This document shows, piece after piece, positions 16,826-56,664 of a DNA stretch of 64,000 nucleotides. Source of the stretch: Eledone cirrhosa (lineage: Eukaryota); the NCBI GenBank assembly GCA_964016885.1, contig OZ024743.1, positions 177,134,001-177,198,000 on the forward strand, given 5' to 3'. A program made the translations under genes and the position numbers. The notes beneath the pieces are model-generated. The model did no database searches and was not told the origin of the DNA. It saw only the letters and a list, made by a program, of their open reading frames with translations. Positions within the stretch are counted from its first letter, which is position 1. Every line of letters begins with the position of its first letter.

Positions 16826-16855
16826 AGATCAAAAGATGGTTAAAAGAGTTCCAAG

Positions 16856-16926
16856 TATTTTATTATGCACATTTCAAAAACAAATATCATCATGAGATGA
16901 TATCTGCGTTTTCATCAGATAAAATA
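16856..16926 (-). ncRNA. Hammerhead ribozyme (family A-related)
   Basis: Minus strand: TATTTTAT-CTGATGA-long stem II (GCAGATATCATC tcat GATGATATTTGT)-GAAA-TGTGCA-TA-ATAAAATA. Confidence 0.85.
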
Positions 16927-18632
16927 GGGATACATGATATGAAGGTTAAAAAACACTTGTGAATAGTGAAGTTTTAAATCAACATATGAAAAAATAATTT
17001 AAGATTGATGTGTGATATTGGGAAAAAGTGAGGGGGGGAGGTAGAATGAGTAAGGAAGAGGAGATGAGAGTAAAGAATGGTGGGGGAGGAGTATAAGAAG
17101 GAAAGATGAGAGAGGAGGAGAGATGGGTGATATATATAGAGAGAGATAGCCTTTACAACTGAGAAAAATATATATTGTCTCACAGAGAGAAGTTAAAAAG
17201 CCGTTGGAAGATAATAGATAATTTAAAAGAATTTGAAATTAAAAGTTGATGAAGAGAAAAAGGGGTTAAGAATATTATTAAATTAAGGTTTGTATATTGA
17301 AGGGTTTAATAATATGTGCGAGGAAAAGAAATTGTTAATATGTATTCTTAAAATAAAAAAAATTAATGTTATTAAGGATATAATGTGAAAAGAAGTAGAA
17401 GAGTGGATGAGTTATGAATTTAGAGGAATTAGTTAGTGTTTAAGTTTGTTTTTATATAATGTGTGCGTAATATATGTAAATAGTTTATTTAAAAATGAGC
17501 GCAGAAAGCAAAGAAGAAAAGAATGTTTAAGGAAGAAAATATCTAACATCAAAAAATATATATGTTTACGAAATATTTTCTAATGGTAATAATATAATAT
17601 ATTAAAGGAAATTAGTTAGGGTTTAAGTTTGTTTTTATGTATTGTAATATGTAATATGTAAAAGTCAAATGAGCATGAAAGGAAGAGATAAGGAATTTAA
17701 GGAAGAAAAATCTAAAGTCAAAAAAAGTTTATGTTTACGAAGGACTATTAAAGGTAATACTATAATGTATTTACAAGACAATAATAATTTTTATGGCCAA
17801 TGATATGAAGAAAGATGGAAGAGTGGATATGTTGTGGTGAGTAATAATAAGAATTGAGAAGTAGTTAGGAAGAAAAAGTACAGATTAGAGGTTAGAAATT
17901 AAAAAGAAAAGAGGAAGAAAGGAAAGTGATAAAGAGGAATGATATAGAATAAGTAACTTTTATTATATAATATATAATAAATAATATTGAAATAAGGTAG
18001 AAAGATGGGTATATTTAAAAAAAATATATATAAGCCTTTGAGAAAAAGGATTTTAAACTAGTAACGTATTAGATATTAGCTGTATACTTTATGGAATGTT
18101 CTGTGTAATTTATGCAAGCAGAGAGAAAATAAATCAGTGCGTCTATTTATTATAGAATCTAAATTAGATATAATAGTAAATTTCTCAGATAGGCAAATAT
18201 TACACGTTCTGGATAGGGAGGCATTCAAGTAGGGAGAGGCAGAACAAACTTTCCTCCAAGAGATGTTATAGTTAATATTTTTGTCTTTCAATATGAGTTC
18301 TGAGAGTGCCGTGTTGGTTCTTTTAAGTTGGTATCTAAAAGACGAATTGTGATTATAAAATCTCGCTTTGAAGGAGGTGGAAGTGGAACCGAAATAGGTA
18401 AAGGAATTGGTATCAGTTATAACCTTACATTCATAGACTAAATTTTGTTGAAGACAATGGTTATTGAGAGGACATTTAGTTTTAACAGGGCAATTACAAT
18501 TGCGATTAGAGAAATTAACAGAGTTATTAACTTTTTCCCAATATCATACATCAATCTTAAATTATTTTTTGATATGTTGATTTAAAACTTCACTATTCAC
18601 AAGTGTTTTTTAACCTTCATATCATGTATCCC

Positions 18633-18703
18633 TATTTTATCTGATGAAAACGCAGATATCATCTCATGATGATATTTGTTTTGGAAATGCGCATAATAAA
18701 ATA
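18633..18703 (+). ncRNA. Hammerhead ribozyme (family A-related)
   Basis: Inverted copy of 16856-16926; palindromic stem III ATGCGCAT. Confidence 0.85.
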
Positions 18704-18827
18704 CTTGGAACTCTTTTAACCATCTTTTGATCTTATAATATTTATACTCCAGTCCTACAAACTGTAGAGTGCTACTTATTCGATATTTGCATTGCTTTAT
18801 TGTGCTACAATAAAACTCACCTCCTAC

Positions 18828-18881
<54 letters not shown>

Positions 18882-18939
18882 CTAAACGAAAAAAAAATGA
18901 AACGAAATTTCATTTCTCATTCTTAGTACGGCTGTTAGT

Positions 18940-19420
18940 TAAATATAAGTATGTATACGTACATACATATATGTATACAGACGTACAGTAGTATGTATAT
19001 ATATACATACATGCACACACATATATATATGTACGTATGGATTTACCGAACATTTATTATAATGTTCGGTGTGTTTGTAAACAAACATCCCGAATTAGGC
19101 TGCTCAGTTGTTAATATGCATAAGGAAAGTATATACTTTCAGACGGTCAATCATCTGGCAGGAAGGTATACGGTGCTGACGATAGCTAATAAGCTTGAAA
19201 CTAGTACATCGTTCCTTTGTCAGTGTTGAACAAAAGGGCAACGATGGTTGCTAAACACTGTACGGATTAATTCGTGATGTTTGTTTACAAACACCCCGAG
19301 CATTATAATAAATGTTCGATAAATCCATACGTACATATATATATGTGTGCATGTATGTATTATATATACTACTGTACGTCTGTATACATATATGTATGTA
19401 CGTATACATACTTATATATA
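18940..19420. repeat. Imperfect inverted repeat (~170-bp arms) enclosing a 140-bp structured spacer
   Basis: ATAAGTATGTATACGTAC...GTGTTTGTAAACAAACATC pairs with GATGTTTGTTTACAAACAC...GTACGTATACATACTTAT. Confidence 0.9.
19170..19212 (+). ncRNA. Minimal hammerhead ribozyme in the spacer of the inverted repeat
   Basis: ACGGTG-CTGACGA-t-AGCT aata AGCT t-GAAA-CTAG-TA-CATCGT; palindromic ACTAGT, GUA site. Confidence 0.85.
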
Positions 19421-19421
19421 T

Positions 19422-20042
19422 ATGAAAGACGTAAAATAAGAAAATTTTAAAAATTAAAAATCAACTTACTTACTAAAATTTTCACCCCAACTAATTAGTT
19501 TCTGTAAGGGAATAAATATAGTTTTTTGTTGAGCAAAACTTGCCAAAATTTACTGCTGATTCATGGTAGTAGTAGGCTCTTGTCATAATACCACCCCGCT
19601 CCTAACTGATTAACCTCAGTGTCACGTGATTGATTCTTTAGAATCTGCCACTGACCAGATGCAGTGAATTTTTTCAGTGCTCCGGAATTTAGTCCTCGCT
19701 AGCTTTATTCCAGCCACTGAATTATTATTATTTTTATATGGGTTTCTAGTGTCCGCGCATCGCCTGGGAACTTAGCTGAGAATAGACTCCCTGATGACGT
19801 AAGGAATTCTCTATAGTTATATTATGTAACTATATTTATCCCCTTACAGAAACTAATTAGTTGGAGTGAAAATTTTAGTAAGTTGATTTTTAATTTTAAA
19901 AATTTTCTTATTTTACGTCTTTCATTTAATTGTTCTGCATCCCCCTGCATAGAACCACAAAGGTACTAAGACATAACATATATATTTGCTAGCATAGGTG
20001 AACATCTGTACACATATGTTGGTAAATGTACTAATTCTCTAT
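19422..20042 (+). mobile_element. Family B 535-bp HHR module: one unit preceded by an inverted partial copy
   Basis: Homologous to 24930-26076 and 55740-56672; 19422-19523 is the reverse complement of 19825-19925. Confidence 0.88.
19786..19867 (+). ncRNA. Hammerhead ribozyme (family B)
   Basis: ACTCC-CTGATGA-cGTAAGG..TATAGTTA/TAACTATA..CCTTACa-GAAA-CTAATTAG-TT-GGAGT. Confidence 0.88.
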
Positions 20043-20102
20043 ACTTTTAAAACTATAGGTTTGGATTTTCCATCTCATTTTAATAAATGTATAACTATAT
20101 GT

Positions 20103-24885: not shown

Positions 24886-24935
<50 letters not shown>

Positions 24936-25106
24936 ATTAGTATATCTACCAACATTTGTATACAGATGTATACCCATGCCAGCAAATATATATGTTATGT
25001 CTTAGTACCTTTGTGGTTCTATGCAGGGTATGCAGAACAATTATATGAAAGACGTAAAATAAGAAAATTTAAAAAATTAAAAATTAACTTACTTACTAAA
25101 ATTTTC

Positions 25107-25188
25107 ATTCCAACTAATTAGTTTCTGTAAGGGGATAAATATAGTTACGTAACATAACTATAGAGAATTCCTTACGTCATCAGGGAGT
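25107..25188 (-). ncRNA. Hammerhead ribozyme (family B)
   Basis: Reverse complement of the family B motif; intact core, one stem I mismatch. Confidence 0.8.
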
Positions 25189-25936
25189 CTATTCTCAGCT
25201 AAGCTCCCAGGCAATGCGCGGACACTAGGAACCCATATAAAAATAATAATTCAGTGGATGGAATAAAGATAGCGGGGACTAAATTCAAAGCACTGAAAAA
25301 ATTCACTGCCTCTTTGGTCAGTGGCAGATTCTAAAGAATCAATCACGTGACACTGAGGTTAATCAGTGAGGAGTAGGGTGGTATGACAAGAGCCTACTAC
25401 TACCATGAATCACAGCAGTAAATTTTGGCAAGTTTTACTCAACAAATAATTTGGAGATAAATATAGAGAATTAGTATATCTACCAACATTTGTATACAGA
25501 TGTATACCCATGTCAGCAAATATATATGTTATGTCTTAGTACCTTTGTGGTTCTATGCAGGGGGATGCAGAACAATTATATGAAAGACGTAAAATAAGAA
25601 AATTTTAAAAATTAAAAATTAACTTACTTACTAAAATTTATATATTTTTATCTTTATATATTTATCTCCAAATTATTTGTTGAGTAAAACTTGCCAAAAT
25701 TTACTGCTGTGATTCATGGTAGTAGTAGGTTCTTGTCATAATACAACACCACTCCTCACTGATTAACCTCAGTGTCACGTGATTGATTCTTTAGAATCTG
25801 CCACTGACCAAAGAGGCAGTGAATTTTTTCAGTGCTTTGAATTTAGTCCTCGCTAGCTTTATTCCAGCCACTGAATTATTATTTTTATATGGGTTCCTAG
25901 TGTCCGCGCATTGCCTGGGAACTTAGCTGAGAATAG

Positions 25937-26018
25937 ACTTCCAGATGACGTAAGGAATTCTCTATAGTTATGTTACGTAACTATATTTATCCCCTTACAG
26001 AAACTAATTAGTTGGAGT
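25937..26018 (+). ncRNA. Hammerhead ribozyme (family B, U4A core variant)
   Basis: ACTTC-CAGATGA-...-GAAA-CTAATTAG-TT-GGAGT. Confidence 0.65.
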
Positions 26019-26090
26019 GAAAATTTTAGTAAGTTAATTTTTAATTTTTAAAATTTTCTTATCTTACGTCTTTCATATATATATATATAA

Positions 26091-28118
26091 CTTCTGCGCC
26101 TCGGACCCAAGTTCATCATTACACAGCGTCTCGATGATAGACTGAAACTCGACATCGAAACCAACTTCTGTCGGACAGCATATCAACTGAAATGGCTAAC
26201 CGCCATCCAAAACAACACCGAGATCGATTACAACCCCACAACCCACCCCACACTCCCCACGTATCACCTCGACAACCCACTCCACCCCCCACCCACCAAC
26301 CATGAACTTGACACTAAACTACTCAGGTTGAAACATTCTATCTCTAACATCCTTTCCCAACACACACACACACACAATAAACGCAACCTCACCAATGCAC
26401 AATTTAATACTCTCACCAACCTAAGATCCAGGAACCTTGTGTACCTTCCCTCTGACAAGGGGAAAGAATTCTGTGTCATCTCGAGAGAGACCTACAACAA
26501 CTTAGCTCTCCAACATCTTAATGACCACAGCCTCTACTCAAAAGTCACAGGGACCTCCTCGACTCTAATCGAGGAAGGCATTAACACCATATGGACTAAC
26601 ATCTGTGTCCAACGAAAACTGCCAAAGAAGGTAAAAAACAACATAATGACTCGAAACAGCAAATTACCCACCTTCTACCACCTGGTTAAAACACATAAAC
26701 AAGGACCCGATTTGAAAATCAAGCCCATTGTCTCTAGCGTGGAGGGCCCACTCTACAAAATATCGTGGCTGCTCTCCACACTACTGAAACCCATTCTACA
26801 TACACTACCAGCCCACGTCTGCAGCTCAAAGGAGGTCTTGGAGCGACTACACCATCTGGCGCCCAACACCAGAAAGGACAACGGTTATGCCTTCAGTCTT
26901 GATGTGGTCGCCCTTTATACCTCCGTACCAGCATCCCCAGCTGTCGACCTGTTGACCGAACGAGTCCGAGCATCTAACTTACACTGCTTCGGACTCACAC
27001 ACACGGACATCCACCAACTCCTCTCCTTCGTTGTGGATAATGCACTCTTCAATTTCCTCGGCCACACGTACAAACAAATCTCTGGGCTACCTATGGGCTC
27101 TAGTCTGTCCGGCATACTTGCGATCTCGTACATGGACCACCTGGAACGCAAGGCACTCAATACCTGCCAACCCAACGCCGTCGCCTTCTACTCCAGATAC
27201 GTTGATGACATCCTGACACTTACTTCTTCCCGGGAGATGGCGAATGAAATTCACCAAATCTTCAAAGATACTGACCATCACGTCGATTTCACCATCGAAC
27301 ACCCAGGAGAAGACGGGTCACTCGCCCTCCTAGACTTCCGTATCAACATCTCGGAAGAAGGAGACATAAACACCACCTTCTACCGCAAAGCAGCGTGCAA
27401 GGACTTATTTGTGCATTATAACTCAGCCCTCCCCAACAACGCTAAGAGAGGCTATGTCCTAAATGAACTGACACGGATCACTAACAGATGCAGCGACCCG
27501 ATGGGTGGTCTCACCCATACCACGCAATTCCGTAATCTACTCAGATCTAATGGTTATCCCAAGCGACTGATTAACGGAATTAGAGACCCCAGACCCAATA
27601 GACAGACACCCACTAGAAACTTAAATAAAAGCAGGTGTTTCTTTAAAATCCCCCACCTGAGTGAATATACCACGAACGCCATCCGCAGGGCCATACGGAC
27701 GGAGGGACTTGACATACATTTGGCCCACACAGGACCTTCGCTGCGAAGATGCCTCTCCAACAAACCCGACGAGTCAGATGGGACGTGTTCCCTCAGCAAC
27801 TGCCCGATACGGGGGGCAGATTGCCTACGCACCTATGTCGTATATAAGATTCAATGCGATAAATGTAACAAGTTTTACATAGGTAGCACCATCCGACCCC
27901 TACATGTTCGTATCAAGGAACATATCAACACCAACGCATCTTCCTTCCGTAAACACATCCTTAAATGCGGAAACCCACAGGGTAGACCCTTGGTCACAGT
28001 CCTAGCGACTGAACGCAGCATCGGATCCTTAAGGATAAAGGAAGCACTTGTTATTAAGAACCTCAGACCCCCACTTAACAACCGGGCTGAGAGAAATGAG
28101 CTGACATGGCTAACTTAA
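26091..28118 (+). CDS. Penelope-like RT + GIY-YIG polyprotein; 5'-truncated but uninterrupted (~675 codons)
   Basis: LLRLGPKF, SDKG, YHLVKTHK, SLDVVALYTSVP, GLPMGSSLS, RYVDD, LLDF, Cys linker, VVY...YIGST.R.L..RIKEH; frame open from 26091, no start codon. Confidence 0.93.
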   Translation, partial: LLRLGPKFIITQRLDDRLKLDIETNFCRTAYQLKWLTAIQNNTEIDYNPTTHPTLPTYHLDNPLHPPPTNHELDTKLLRLKHSISNILSQHTHTHNKRNLTNAQFNTLTNLRSRNLVYLPSDKGKEFCVISRETYNNLALQHLNDHSLYSKVTGTSSTLIEEGINTIWTNICVQRKLPKKVKNNIMTRNSKLPTFYHLVKTHKQGPDLKIKPIVSSVEGPLYKISWLLSTLLKPILHTLPAHVCSSKEVLERLHHLAPNTRKDNGYAFSLDVVALYTSVPASPAVDLLTERVRASNLHCFGLTHTDIHQLLSFVVDNALFNFLGHTYKQISGLPMGSSLSGILAISYMDHLERKALNTCQPNAVAFYSRYVDDILTLTSSREMANEIHQIFKDTDHHVDFTIEHPGEDGSLALLDFRINISEEGDINTTFYRKAACKDLFVHYNSALPNNAKRGYVLNELTRITNRCSDPMGGLTHTTQFRNLLRSNGYPKRLINGIRDPRPNRQTPTRNLNKSRCFFKIPHLSEYTTNAIRRAIRTEGLDIHLAHTGPSLRRCLSNKPDESDGTCSLSNCPIRGADCLRTYVVYKIQCDKCNKFYIGSTIRPLHVRIKEHINTNASSFRKHILKCGNPQGRPLVTVLATERSIGSLRIKEALVIKNLRPPLNNRAERNELTWLT

Positions 28119-47050: not shown

Positions 47051-47225
47051 TAAGTAATGTTATCTGAATGAGTGAGTCTTAGATAAAAAAAATAAGAGCA
47101 ATCCCCCTCAACCACCCAACATAAACGAAAAACTCCAATAATTTAGATAAGGAGAGAATGTAAAATAACGTAGAAAGAAGGAGAAAAGTGTAATAAAAAT
47201 ACATCAATAGAAGAAATATACTTAC

Positions 47226-48738
47226 CGTACAAACAAATCATTTATTGTATTTCTTTCTCTAAATTTAAATACGTATTCTTTTACAGTATCATGCCAGTAA
47301 AAGAAATCTTTATCTACGGAGCCAAACATTTCTGCCAGGCTGCCATTTTCCCGATAGGCAAAATACTCGTCTCGAAGTTCTGCAGATATATTTTCTAAAG
47401 GAGCTAAGAATTCTGTGTAATTAGCATATTCATAATAAACGTAGGAATCATGGTCCAGAATGATACATTTCCAGAGCAACAAGATAGTCTCTAAGAGTTT
47501 AGTCCAGCGGTAAAAGAGCAAAGAACTGCGTTCGCGCAATTCTTCCATAAACAATTGCAGGTCTATTATATTTAAAGTGTGGTTATGAGATTGCAAAATG
47601 GCCGCCAAATAGATTTTTGTTATTGACGTGTTCGTCAAATATTGAACGATCTCCGATGAGACATTGAAAACATTTTGTGTTGACATAAGATTCAGATGTT
47701 TCTGATGAATTTGGACCAATGAATTATTCATATCGTTTATAATTTGCCGAATAATTTCCATTGGAGTTTCTAATTCAGTTATTCTGGATTTGATGATTTT
47801 GAGGGCATATTTTATAGTGGCGCTATAAAACACACTCTTCGCACCGTTGAAACGTTCAAACAACTCTACACATACCATCGAGGTTTCTGTAAAGTTTGTC
47901 AGGTTGAATCCATCGTCTCTTGTATTTAGCATATCAGAGAAAATGTACAAATAATTCTTTAAATTAGATAGAGTTTTATTAAGCAAAGTGAACGAAGTAG
48001 AATTTGATTCGTTTAATTTCGTTGTTAGTAGACTCCTTGGAACAGCATAAAAGTTATGTTTTCTCGGCACATTGAAATATGCATAACGAAATATACCTAC
48101 TCCATCGACTAACGACTGATAATATTCTGATAAATTACCCTCTGCCTTTTCTATAATGTTTAATTTGCTGTCGATATTCATTTTAATAGTACGAACTAAC
48201 ATGTCAGTAGCCAGTTCATTTTTATAGTTGCTGTTTGTTAGTTCATCAAGTTTCAAAAACATATTTTTCAGTGAGAAAAGGAAATTGTGGAAATCAAAAC
48301 TGACGTGGCTGAACGTACGTTCGGCTATGGCTTCCCACGGACGTTTAAAGTTTTTTTCTATTAAATATTTCTGATAATTATAAATAAATAGTTTCGTAGT
48401 AAACATGTTCTCTATTTTCTTGGAAATATATTGAAGAACAGTTAATTCTTTTTTAATTTTCATTTCTAGTTTATCCATCATCAGCGTTCGAAAAGCTGCA
48501 TTCGATGAATTTAGATGTAGAAGCATATCTCGAAATTTAGTGTATGTTCCGGAGTCCATCCTGTGCTTCACTTCCTTAGCAGTTATAAGCCTCTGCTTCA
48601 AATCAGCCATACGTGGGTCCATAACCAATTTACTAACTTCATTCGCCGAATGTGTTGTATATGAGATTGTAGGATCGAATAGGAGCATTTTACAAGGTAA
48701 AGGGCAATCACAATTTAATTTAGAGCCTTGAAACATAT
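47226..48738 (-). CDS. DEG/ENaC channel giant exon (1513 bp): end of thumb, beta10 and ~460-aa insertion
   Basis: ttccAG|AT...CG|GTAAG; CDCPLPC motif; 504 open codons in AT-rich DNA. Confidence 0.92.
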
Positions 48739-49334
48739 CTGGAAAGAGAGATAAAACAAAATAAGATATCAGTGAAGATGTAGCGCAAACAAATTATTTA
48801 GATATCATATTATTTGTATTATAAAGAATGGTTTGCTCATGGGCAGAGATGCTACAAAATTGCTTATAAAATAGGTTAGTGACGGAAATCGAATGATACG
48901 AAGAATAGCGGCCGATGGCAACGTCTTTTCCCACCTTTTCAGGTTTTTCATCCTATTTTATAGCATCTCCGCGCATGAGCACGCCATTTTTTATATTCAC
49001 TTTATCTCCTCAACGATTTGTGTAAGGACCAAGAAATCAGTTTACGTATACAAAATGATGACTTGTATTATTTAAAGATAGCCACCGTTTCGGAATAATA
49101 GTAAAATGAGATGTATGTTGCCATTAAATTTCCCACAGAAAATAGAAATGTATGGAAGTATGGTCCCATACCACTTGGTGGGGTCGTGGAGGCACCGTAG
49201 TGACATGTTGAGTTTTTTGAGCATTTTTAAGTCTGGCGGAGTCCATCCCTCTCCAGGCCTGAACACGGCAGATTTCTTCCAGATAAGAATATAGAGTGAG
49301 AGAAAGGAAGTAAGAAAGAGACACAGAGCAAGAA

Positions 49335-55560: not shown

Positions 55561-56017
55561 ATATATAAACAACTATCTGGTTGTGGAACCAACCAACCAA
55601 CCAACCAGAAATTTATAAATTTATAAATTTGTAAATTTATAAATATATAATAAATTGAAGTGAAACAACTGGTGCGTGTGTTTCTGATTGGCAACATGAC
55701 CCTCCTAAAGTATAACAATATATATATATATATATATATTTATCTCCAAATTATTTATTTGTTGAGCAAACCTGCCAAATCCACTAGTAACTCATTGTAG
55801 TGGTAGTAGGCTTTTGTCATTTTACCACCCCACTCCTTCCGACTAGCCTCAGTGTCACGTGATTGATTCTTTAGAATCTGCCATTTGACCAGAGACAGTG
55901 AACTTTTTCAGTGCTTTGGAATTCAGTCCCCGCTAGCTGTTCCATCCACCGAATTATTATTATTTTTATATGAGTCCCTAGTGTCCGCGCATTGCCTGGA
56001 GACTTAGCTGAGAATAG

Positions 56018-56099
56018 ACTCCCTGATGACGTAATGAAATCTCGATGGTTACATTGCGTAACTATCTTTATCCCATTACAGAAACTAATTAGTTGGAGT
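56018..56099 (+). ncRNA. Hammerhead ribozyme (family B)
   Basis: ACTCC-CTGATGA-cGTAATG..GATGGTTAC/GTAACTATC..CATTACa-GAAA-CTAATTAG-TT-GGAGT. Confidence 0.9.
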
Positions 56100-56528
56100 G
56101 AAAATTCTAGTAAGTTGATTTTTAATTTTTTAAATTTTCTTATTTTACGTCTCTCATATAATTGTTCTGCATCCTCCTGCATTGAACCACCTAGGTACTA
56201 TGACATAACTTATGTATTTGCTAGCATTAGTGTACATCTGTACGCATATGTTGGTAAATATACTAATTCTCTATATTTACCTCCAAATTATTTTTTTGTT
56301 GAGCAAACCTGCAAAATCCACTAGTAACTCATTGTAGTGGTAGTAGGCTTTTGTCATTTTACCACCCCCACTCCTTCCGACTAGCCTCCGTGTCACGTGA
56401 TTGATTCTTTAGAATTTTTCAGTGCTTTGGAATTTAGTCCCCGCTAGCTGTTCCATCCACCGAATTATTATTATTTTTATATGAGTCCCTAGTGTCCGCG
56501 CATTGCCTGGAGACTTAGCTGAGAATAG

Positions 56529-56610
56529 ACTCCCTGATGACGTAATGAATTCTCGATGGTTACATTGCGTAACTATCTTTATCCCATTACAGAAACTAAT
56601 TAGTTGGAGT
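56529..56610 (+). ncRNA. Hammerhead ribozyme (family B)
   Basis: Tandem copy 511 nt downstream of 56018. Confidence 0.9.
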
Positions 56611-56664
56611 GAAAATTTTAGTAAGTAAGTTGATTTTTAATTTTTAAAATTTTCTTATTTTACG

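What the first reader, a model, noticed from the sequence alone, without database searches (positions are those of the whole stretch)
18940..19420. 480-nt rod-folding element with one intact hammerhead at its apex and a competing hairpin
Seen: unlike the other fold-backs, the HHR (19170-19212) is single-copy and lies in the spacer. The ~170-nt arms are visibly diverged, so this is not a fresh inversion. The 3' strand of stem I (CATCGTT) can instead pair with AACGATG at ~19241-19247, closing the hairpin CATCGTT-CCTTTGT...ACAAAAGGG-CAACGATG. Upstream, TATACTTTC/GAAGGTATA forms another helix reaching the 5' strand of stem I. Inference: a highly base-paired, viroid- or retrozyme-like RNA in which the ribozyme is active only transiently during transcription and is then locked off, as known for viroid and satellite RNA HHRs.
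Basis: partly seen in the sequence, partly recalled or inferred. Interest (0 to 1): 0.75.

Follow-up and report, generated by a model that had tools for sequence, protein, structure and literature searches.

The report
Retrozyme inserted like a Penelope element
The rod is one of over 20,000 genomic copies of a small repeat carrying a predicted self-cleaving RNA motif; it is two back-to-back shortened copies, likely pasted in by a Penelope-type retrotransposon enzyme, not a viroid-like RNA.

Summary
The fold-back, the type I hammerhead core and the competing hairpin are real; the viroid-like reading is not supported. The hammerhead belongs to a 420-500 bp tandem unit with at least 22,009 core copies in three subfamilies: a non-LTR retrozyme.

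The window holds two 5'-truncated copies joined head to head in a (TA)n tract. The rod is insertion geometry: its junction is unique and its arms show no compensatory change. Copies end at two fixed sites about 56 nt apart, and 41 of 44 scorable head-to-head insertions use one of each. This matches the published Penelope-like inverted copy with a one-sided tail.

Helix I is kept across subfamilies; the "locking" hairpin is broken in sister subfamilies and loses at full length. Helix III is one pair plus a palindrome, so cleavage likely needs two copies. Two arrays alternate two monomers, suggesting a circular dimer template.

No RNA data; helper element not identified; Rfam gave no hammerhead hit. 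The scan noted similar palindromic Penelope insertions in another genome.

The parts
18883..19097 (-). Inverted, 5'-truncated copy of the unit (about u176-389); its 3' end is site B
18883..18941 (-). One-sided tail (about 56-58 nt, unit u334-389), absent from the other arm
19093..19097 (.). Head-to-head junction; the 5 nt here fit both arms (microhomology read from the sequence); junction pattern unique in the genome
19093..19420 (+). Forward, 5'-truncated copy of the unit (u1-333); its 3' end is site A, running into TA dinucleotides
19146..19230 (+). Type I hammerhead with extended helix I (Ia 19171-75/19207-11, Ib 19160-64/19212-16, Ic 19155-59/19219-23, Id 19146-50/19226-30); core 19176-19206; predicted cleavage after 19206; helix III one pair plus palindromic tetraloop
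19207..19246 (+).
19132..19170 (+).
18826..18882 (.). (TA)n tract, the likely target; it also closes the neighbouring Penelope-like insertion
16826..18830 (.). Context, not part of the element: head-to-head, 5'-truncated protein-coding Penelope-like insertion (GIY-YIG-type frame 18076-18543, minus strand) with the same two-end layout

Best explanation
This is an insertion of a high-copy 420-500 bp repeat carrying a predicted type I hammerhead (a non-LTR retrozyme), made of two 5'-truncated copies joined back to back, likely written into a cut (TA)n tract by the enzyme of a Penelope-like element. Shown: the unit, its copy number, the two fixed 3' ends, their one-of-each pairing, the TA targets and the variable junctions. 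Inferred: tandem arrays are transcribed; pairs of hammerheads cleave (dimer-type helix III) and give monomer or dimer RNAs that likely circularise. A Penelope-like RT-endonuclease then cuts both strands and primes cDNA from each DNA end, one at site A and one at site B, and the two incomplete cDNAs are joined by end-joining. The rod is a by-product, and this lone copy is probably an inert fossil.
For: Copy number 3,563 + 11,202 + 7,244 for three non-overlapping core patterns, controls 0. Tandem units of 420-502 bp. In 85 loci taken in positional order, 122 3' ends fall at A (60) or B (62). Head-to-head pairs: 27 A+B of 29 scorable in that set (p 8e-7 against 50:50) and 41 of 44 overall; 25 of 69 pairs had an unscorable end and were set aside. 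88 of 122 ends abut (TA)4+ against 212 of 2,382 background positions. 93 of 122 arms run through the cleavage site and only 2 start at u110-120, so cleaved linear monomer is not the main template. The neighbouring protein-coding family also shows two ends, one of each in the 2 pairs measurable. Papers describe the inverted 5'-truncated copy, one-sided tail and (TA)n bias (PMC8557442, PMC3846280), and show the tail lies between two RT start sites with both strands cut and extended (PMC11167929). One pair plus palindromic tetraloop cleaves poorly alone and well as a dimer (PMC7229834).
Against: No helper element sharing sequence with the unit was found: 25 loci of one family and the window's own elements gave only nested copies. 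Rfam gives no hammerhead hit. No cleavage or RNA data. The tail (56 nt) is longer than the published 30-40 bp. 33 of 85 loci show a single arm. The A and B windows were set after seeing the data. Sister arms are slightly more alike than unrelated arms (95.4% vs 93.2%, n=36), which also fits fold-back copying or conversion. PMC3846280 proposes self-priming on an antisense template for head-to-head structures instead.
Confidence: 0.86

Rival explanations
1. One reading: the 480-nt rod is itself a viroid-like RNA whose hammerhead works only during transcription and is then locked by the downstream hairpin.
For: Very stable fold; the hairpin dominates in a short transcription window and is intact in about half of 145 window-type copies. 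A kinetic trap cannot be excluded by equilibrium folding.
Against: Junction unique. The four arm substitutions give three mismatches and one wobble, none compensatory; 0 of 9 rare variants shared between the arms. Energy per base (-0.50) lies within the range of 20 other head-to-head insertions (-0.34 to -0.70). Hairpin broken at 4 of 14 pairs in S2 and 2 of 14 in S3 and absent from the circular fold of 5 of 5 natural monomers.
Confidence: 0.04
2. The unit is the detached pseudo-LTR of an autonomous Penelope-like element not yet found, and the copies are truncated insertions of that element rather than an independent retrozyme.
For: Same insertion layout; retrozymes are proposed to derive from pseudo-LTRs (10.64898/2026.07.22.740005).
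Against: Arms wrap from unit end to unit start, up to about ten times, with no coding frame between. Matches to four Penelope-like proteins in 118 loci lay outside the unit; the one junction examined was an insertion into an older copy with a 9-bp duplication.
Confidence: 0.06
3. The inverted arm arises by DNA-level fold-back or by copying of the first cDNA, not by a second priming event.
For: Sister arms slightly more alike than random arms; 68 of 378 rare variants shared.
Against: Either arm can be the longer one, and the short arm can carry a tail that the long arm lacks, as in the window. Both arms often hold sequence the other lacks.
Confidence: 0.08
4. A MITE with terminal inverted repeats that captured an unrelated hammerhead.
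For: Fold-back shape only.
Against: Arm and hammerhead are contiguous parts of one tandem unit in all subfamilies; arm length and centre vary freely.
Confidence: 0.01

Closest known systems
Metazoan non-LTR retrozymes (PMC7229834; 10.64898/2026.07.22.740005)
   Same: Non-coding tandem unit of a few hundred bp, one type I hammerhead per unit, thousands of copies, low GC, self-paired monomer; ribozyme predicted not to be blocked by self-pairing, as PMC7229834 reports for most animal retrozymes.
   Different: Units up to about 500 bp with an internal TA-rich tract. The parts I read do not describe head-to-head insertions, fixed 3' ends or tails. Expression and circularisation untested here.
Axolotl hammerheads HHR_Amex1 and HHR_Amex2 (PMC7229834)
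   Same: One-pair helix III with palindromic tetraloop (Amex1); U.U at the base of helix II (Amex2).
   Different: Both weaknesses occur in one motif here; helix I is long.
Penelope-like element insertions (PMC8557442, PMC3846280, PMC11167929), including non-autonomous families such as MRC1
   Same: 5' truncation, partial tandems, inverted 5'-truncated copy, tail on one end, (TA)n targets.
   Different: No reading frame; tail about 56 nt; no sequence shared with the one protein-coding family tested.
Hammerhead viroids and plant LTR retrozymes
   Same: Hammerhead present; a stable fold can be drawn.
   Different: Those block the ribozyme by self-pairing (PMC7229834) and plant retrozymes carry type III motifs. 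Here the rod is an insertion product and the blocking hairpin is not conserved.

Membership tests
non-LTR retrozyme | Tandem unit of about 150-450 bp (up to 972 bp in the 2026 preprint) with one type I hammerhead per unit | tested here: met
   Units 420-502 bp, one core each
non-LTR retrozyme | [quoted passage not shown] | tested here: met
   Arrays of 3 to about 10 units; the window locus itself has one motif
non-LTR retrozyme | No protein coding, no LTR structure | tested here: met
   No frame of 100 aa or more over the element; no match to four Penelope-like proteins inside the unit; PBS and PPT not searched
non-LTR retrozyme | Stable self-paired monomer | tested here: met
   Circular fold z -3.2 to -9.2 in 5 of 5 distinct natural monomers, 15 shuffles each
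non-LTR retrozyme | Expressed, self-cleaving, circular RNA | not testable with these tools
   No RNA holder listed
type I hammerhead ribozyme | Core CUGANGA / GAAA / NUH with helices I-III | tested here: met
   the stem Ia pair 19173-19209 occurs as G.U, A-U and U.G in different subfamilies; helix III minimal
type I hammerhead ribozyme | Match to an Rfam hammerhead model | tested here: not met
   No hammerhead family at E up to 1 or 10
Penelope-like mobilised (non-autonomous) element | Inverted 5'-truncated copy, one-sided tail, microsatellite target | tested here: met
Penelope-like mobilised (non-autonomous) element | Sequence shared with the end of an autonomous partner | tested here: inconclusive
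   One family of an unknown number tested, no shared sequence
viroid-like rod RNA | Rod propagates as a unit with compensatory changes | tested here: not met
MITE | Fixed terminal inverted repeats and fixed internal region | tested here: not met

The most novel reading that the evidence does not exclude
These 20,000-plus insertions record the animal retrozyme life cycle: a circular monomer or dimer RNA is copied by rolling-circle reverse transcription by a dimeric Penelope-like enzyme whose two halves start at two different fixed sites, one per target strand. That explains the strict A+B pairing, the read-through of the cleavage site and the arrays that alternate two monomers.
Probability: 0.45. 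Interest if true: 0.62.

Novelty: new member of a known kind. Interest (0 to 1): 0.36.

Why it matters
The locus itself is ordinary. The family matters modestly: both retrozyme papers read leave the mobilising enzyme and mechanism as a hypothesis, and this family carries the Penelope-type footprint with base-level start sites, which makes that hypothesis directly testable in the published in vitro assay. The one-of-each use of the two start sites is a constraint on the Penelope mechanism that I did not find quantified in the passages read (searches).

Tried and rejected
Rfam scans of the window and of 19120-19280: no hammerhead family, only chance microRNA and snoRNA matches.

RNA evidence: no RNA holder listed; no bearing either way. 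Laying contigs of four coded runs showed subfamily variants only; the few contigs in three of the runs were not used as evidence of occurrence in other organisms.

Helper search: a GIY-YIG-region search gave 59,439 first-look candidates, 150 scored, 25 loci fetched; they share no sequence with the unit beyond nested copies. An apparent retrozyme-Penelope chimera at L159 was rejected: it is an insertion into an older copy with a 9-bp target duplication.

Target duplications in 33 single-arm loci were mostly unreadable in TA tracts. Automated junction overlaps are approximate because the reference belongs to another subfamily; I use them only to show heterogeneity. Arm identity depends on method: 93.5% by projection, 146 of 150 by direct alignment. 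The first monomer split of L188 and L189 found nothing and was redone with another anchor. Pfam recognised only 1 of 4 Penelope-like frames. Look-ups of earlier findings by sequence and by place were blank.

Full report
Observation. The window lies in a 3.0-Gb genome rich in microsatellites and Penelope-like frames. The fold-back is real (z -26); its arms match at 146 of 150 aligned columns with three small indels. A type I hammerhead core lies at 19176-19206. Helix II has a U.U base, and helix III is one pair closed by a palindromic tetraloop. Rfam does not call it, so the assignment rests on the core motif and on conservation.

The unit. A DNA search returned 1,912 first-look candidates, 40 scored. 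Three non-overlapping exact core patterns give 3,563, 11,202 and 7,244 matches, with reversed controls 0. Mapping loci onto a natural 430-bp unit (L014) shows tandem repeats with one hammerhead each. In unit terms the window holds u1-333 forward (19093-19420) and about u176-389 inverted (19097-18883). The stretch both copies contain forms the arms; the part only the forward copy contains, with the ribozyme, forms the spacer.

Insertion signature. I took the first 100 listed matches on contig C1 as 87 loci and dropped 2 overlapping ones. In the 85 left, 122 3' ends fall in two classes, A (about u333, 60 ends) and B (about u389, 62 ends). 45 loci hold 47 head-to-head pairs; 29 have both ends scorable, and 27 are A+B. 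Adding the 30 similarity-picked loci gives 41 A+B, 2 B+B and 1 A+A of 44 scorable among 69 pairs. Sister subfamilies show the same by inspection. Ends abut (TA)4+ in 88 of 122 cases against 9% background. Junction positions scatter over the unit. The window's junction pattern occurs once in the genome; with copies 5-10% apart this exact test is weak alone, but the five best both-arm hits also have other junctions, one (L006) only a few bases off. A hammerhead in one arm only is the common case (33 of 47).

Are the arms under selection as a rod? The window's arms are 93.5% alike against 92.8% to arms elsewhere, and share 0 of 9 rare variants. Their four substitutions give three mismatches and one wobble. 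The rod's energy per base is mid-range among 20 other such insertions. Across 36 pairs sister arms are slightly more alike than random ones (95.4% vs 93.2%), as expected from a common template or time of insertion.

Ribozyme context. Stepwise folding favours the competing hairpin only when the 3' end is near 19250-19260; at 19420 its probability is 0.08 or less, helix II returns and stem Ia pairs reach 0.1-0.44. In 187 of 190 aligned copies, stem Ia is kept in every subfamily, with G.U, A-U and U.G at one position. The hairpin loses 4 of 14 pairs in S2 (17 copies) and 2 of 14 in S3 (25 copies), and four pairs in about half of the window-type group. Copies were picked by core motifs, so core and helix II-III conservation is partly built in, and stem Ib is also broken at two pairs in S2. 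None of 5 natural circular monomers forms the hairpin. PMC7229834 reports that most animal retrozyme circles leave the ribozyme free and that motifs with this helix III cleave poorly alone and well as dimers; a lone copy is therefore likely weak.

Template. 93 of 122 arms run through the cleavage site and only 2 start at it, so the template is circular or an uncleaved multimer. Two unlinked arrays alternate two monomers of 420 and 422 nt that differ at about 13-14 positions, with alternate copies mostly identical, and the two arrays use different pairs. Rolling-circle copying of a circular dimer would give this; so would local duplication of a dimer or a transcript of such an array. These two were picked from their spacing, not sampled.

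Mechanism. PMC8557442 and PMC3846280 describe Penelope-like insertions as 5'-truncated partial tandems with an inverted copy and a tail at one end. PMC11167929 shows in vitro that the protein cuts and extends both strands in AT-rich DNA, starts at two internal RNA sites that bound the tail, and is predicted to be a dimer. I infer two primings per insertion, one at A and one at B, with end-joining of the cDNAs. That paper saw no start-site difference between strands, which does not predict strict pairing. The helper is unidentified. The neighbouring family is abundant, ends in (TA)n and has two ends; its linker reads CxCx5C with an RWI motif near the N-terminus, close to the Hydra description in PMC8557442, but it shares no sequence with the unit.

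Papers seen: 10.64898/2026.07.22.740005 parts 1-3 of 5 (supplements not seen); PMC7229834 passages and parts 2-4 of 6 ('inverted' and 'octopus' have 0 hits in the main text; supplement not read and may show insertion structures); PMC8557442 passages and sections 6 and 11; PMC11167929 parts 1-2 of 4; PMC3846280 passages. Searches listed no paper on this family. Repeat libraries could not be checked and may already hold it. A cephalopod host is my recalled guess from sequence style and was not tested.

Verdict. A new member of a known kind. The rod and lock are by-products; the family-level footprint is a useful, testable link between animal retrozymes and Penelope-like enzymes.

Noticed in passing
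L188 (G000:C1:49583000-49590000) and L189 (G000:C1:19313500-19318500): Arrays that alternate two different monomers (420 and 422 nt), independent at the two loci; possible trace of a circular dimer template.
   Followed up: partly
window 16826-18830: Head-to-head truncated protein-coding Penelope-like insertion with hammerhead-like motifs at 16918 (-) and 18641 (+); family very abundant, one copy with a 760-aa frame (L186), Hydra-like linker.
   Followed up: partly
window 19419-20046: A different dispersed tandem and inverted repeat begins at the retrozyme's right end; copies at 24931-26021 and 55735-56632; no hammerhead core found by my scan.
   Followed up: no
window 8282/8414, 8737/16630, 9198/9608/12298, 62671/63024, 4424, 16338: Further hammerhead-like motifs, mostly in inverted pairs, likely ends of other Penelope-like families.
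   Followed up: no
window 26091-28118: 675-aa frame with reverse transcriptase and GIY-YIG matches, followed by CA-rich repeats.
   Followed up: partly
L159 3885-4761: Single-arm retrozyme dimer inserted into an older Penelope-like frame with a 9-bp target duplication.
   Followed up: yes
window 19327-19420 and 18943-19038: The unit carries its own TA-rich, partly self-complementary tract just before end A; it resembles the target microsatellite and varies in length between units.
   Followed up: no
window 47222-48793: 523-aa open frame, not a repeat protein by appearance; possibly a large exon of a host gene.
   Followed up: no
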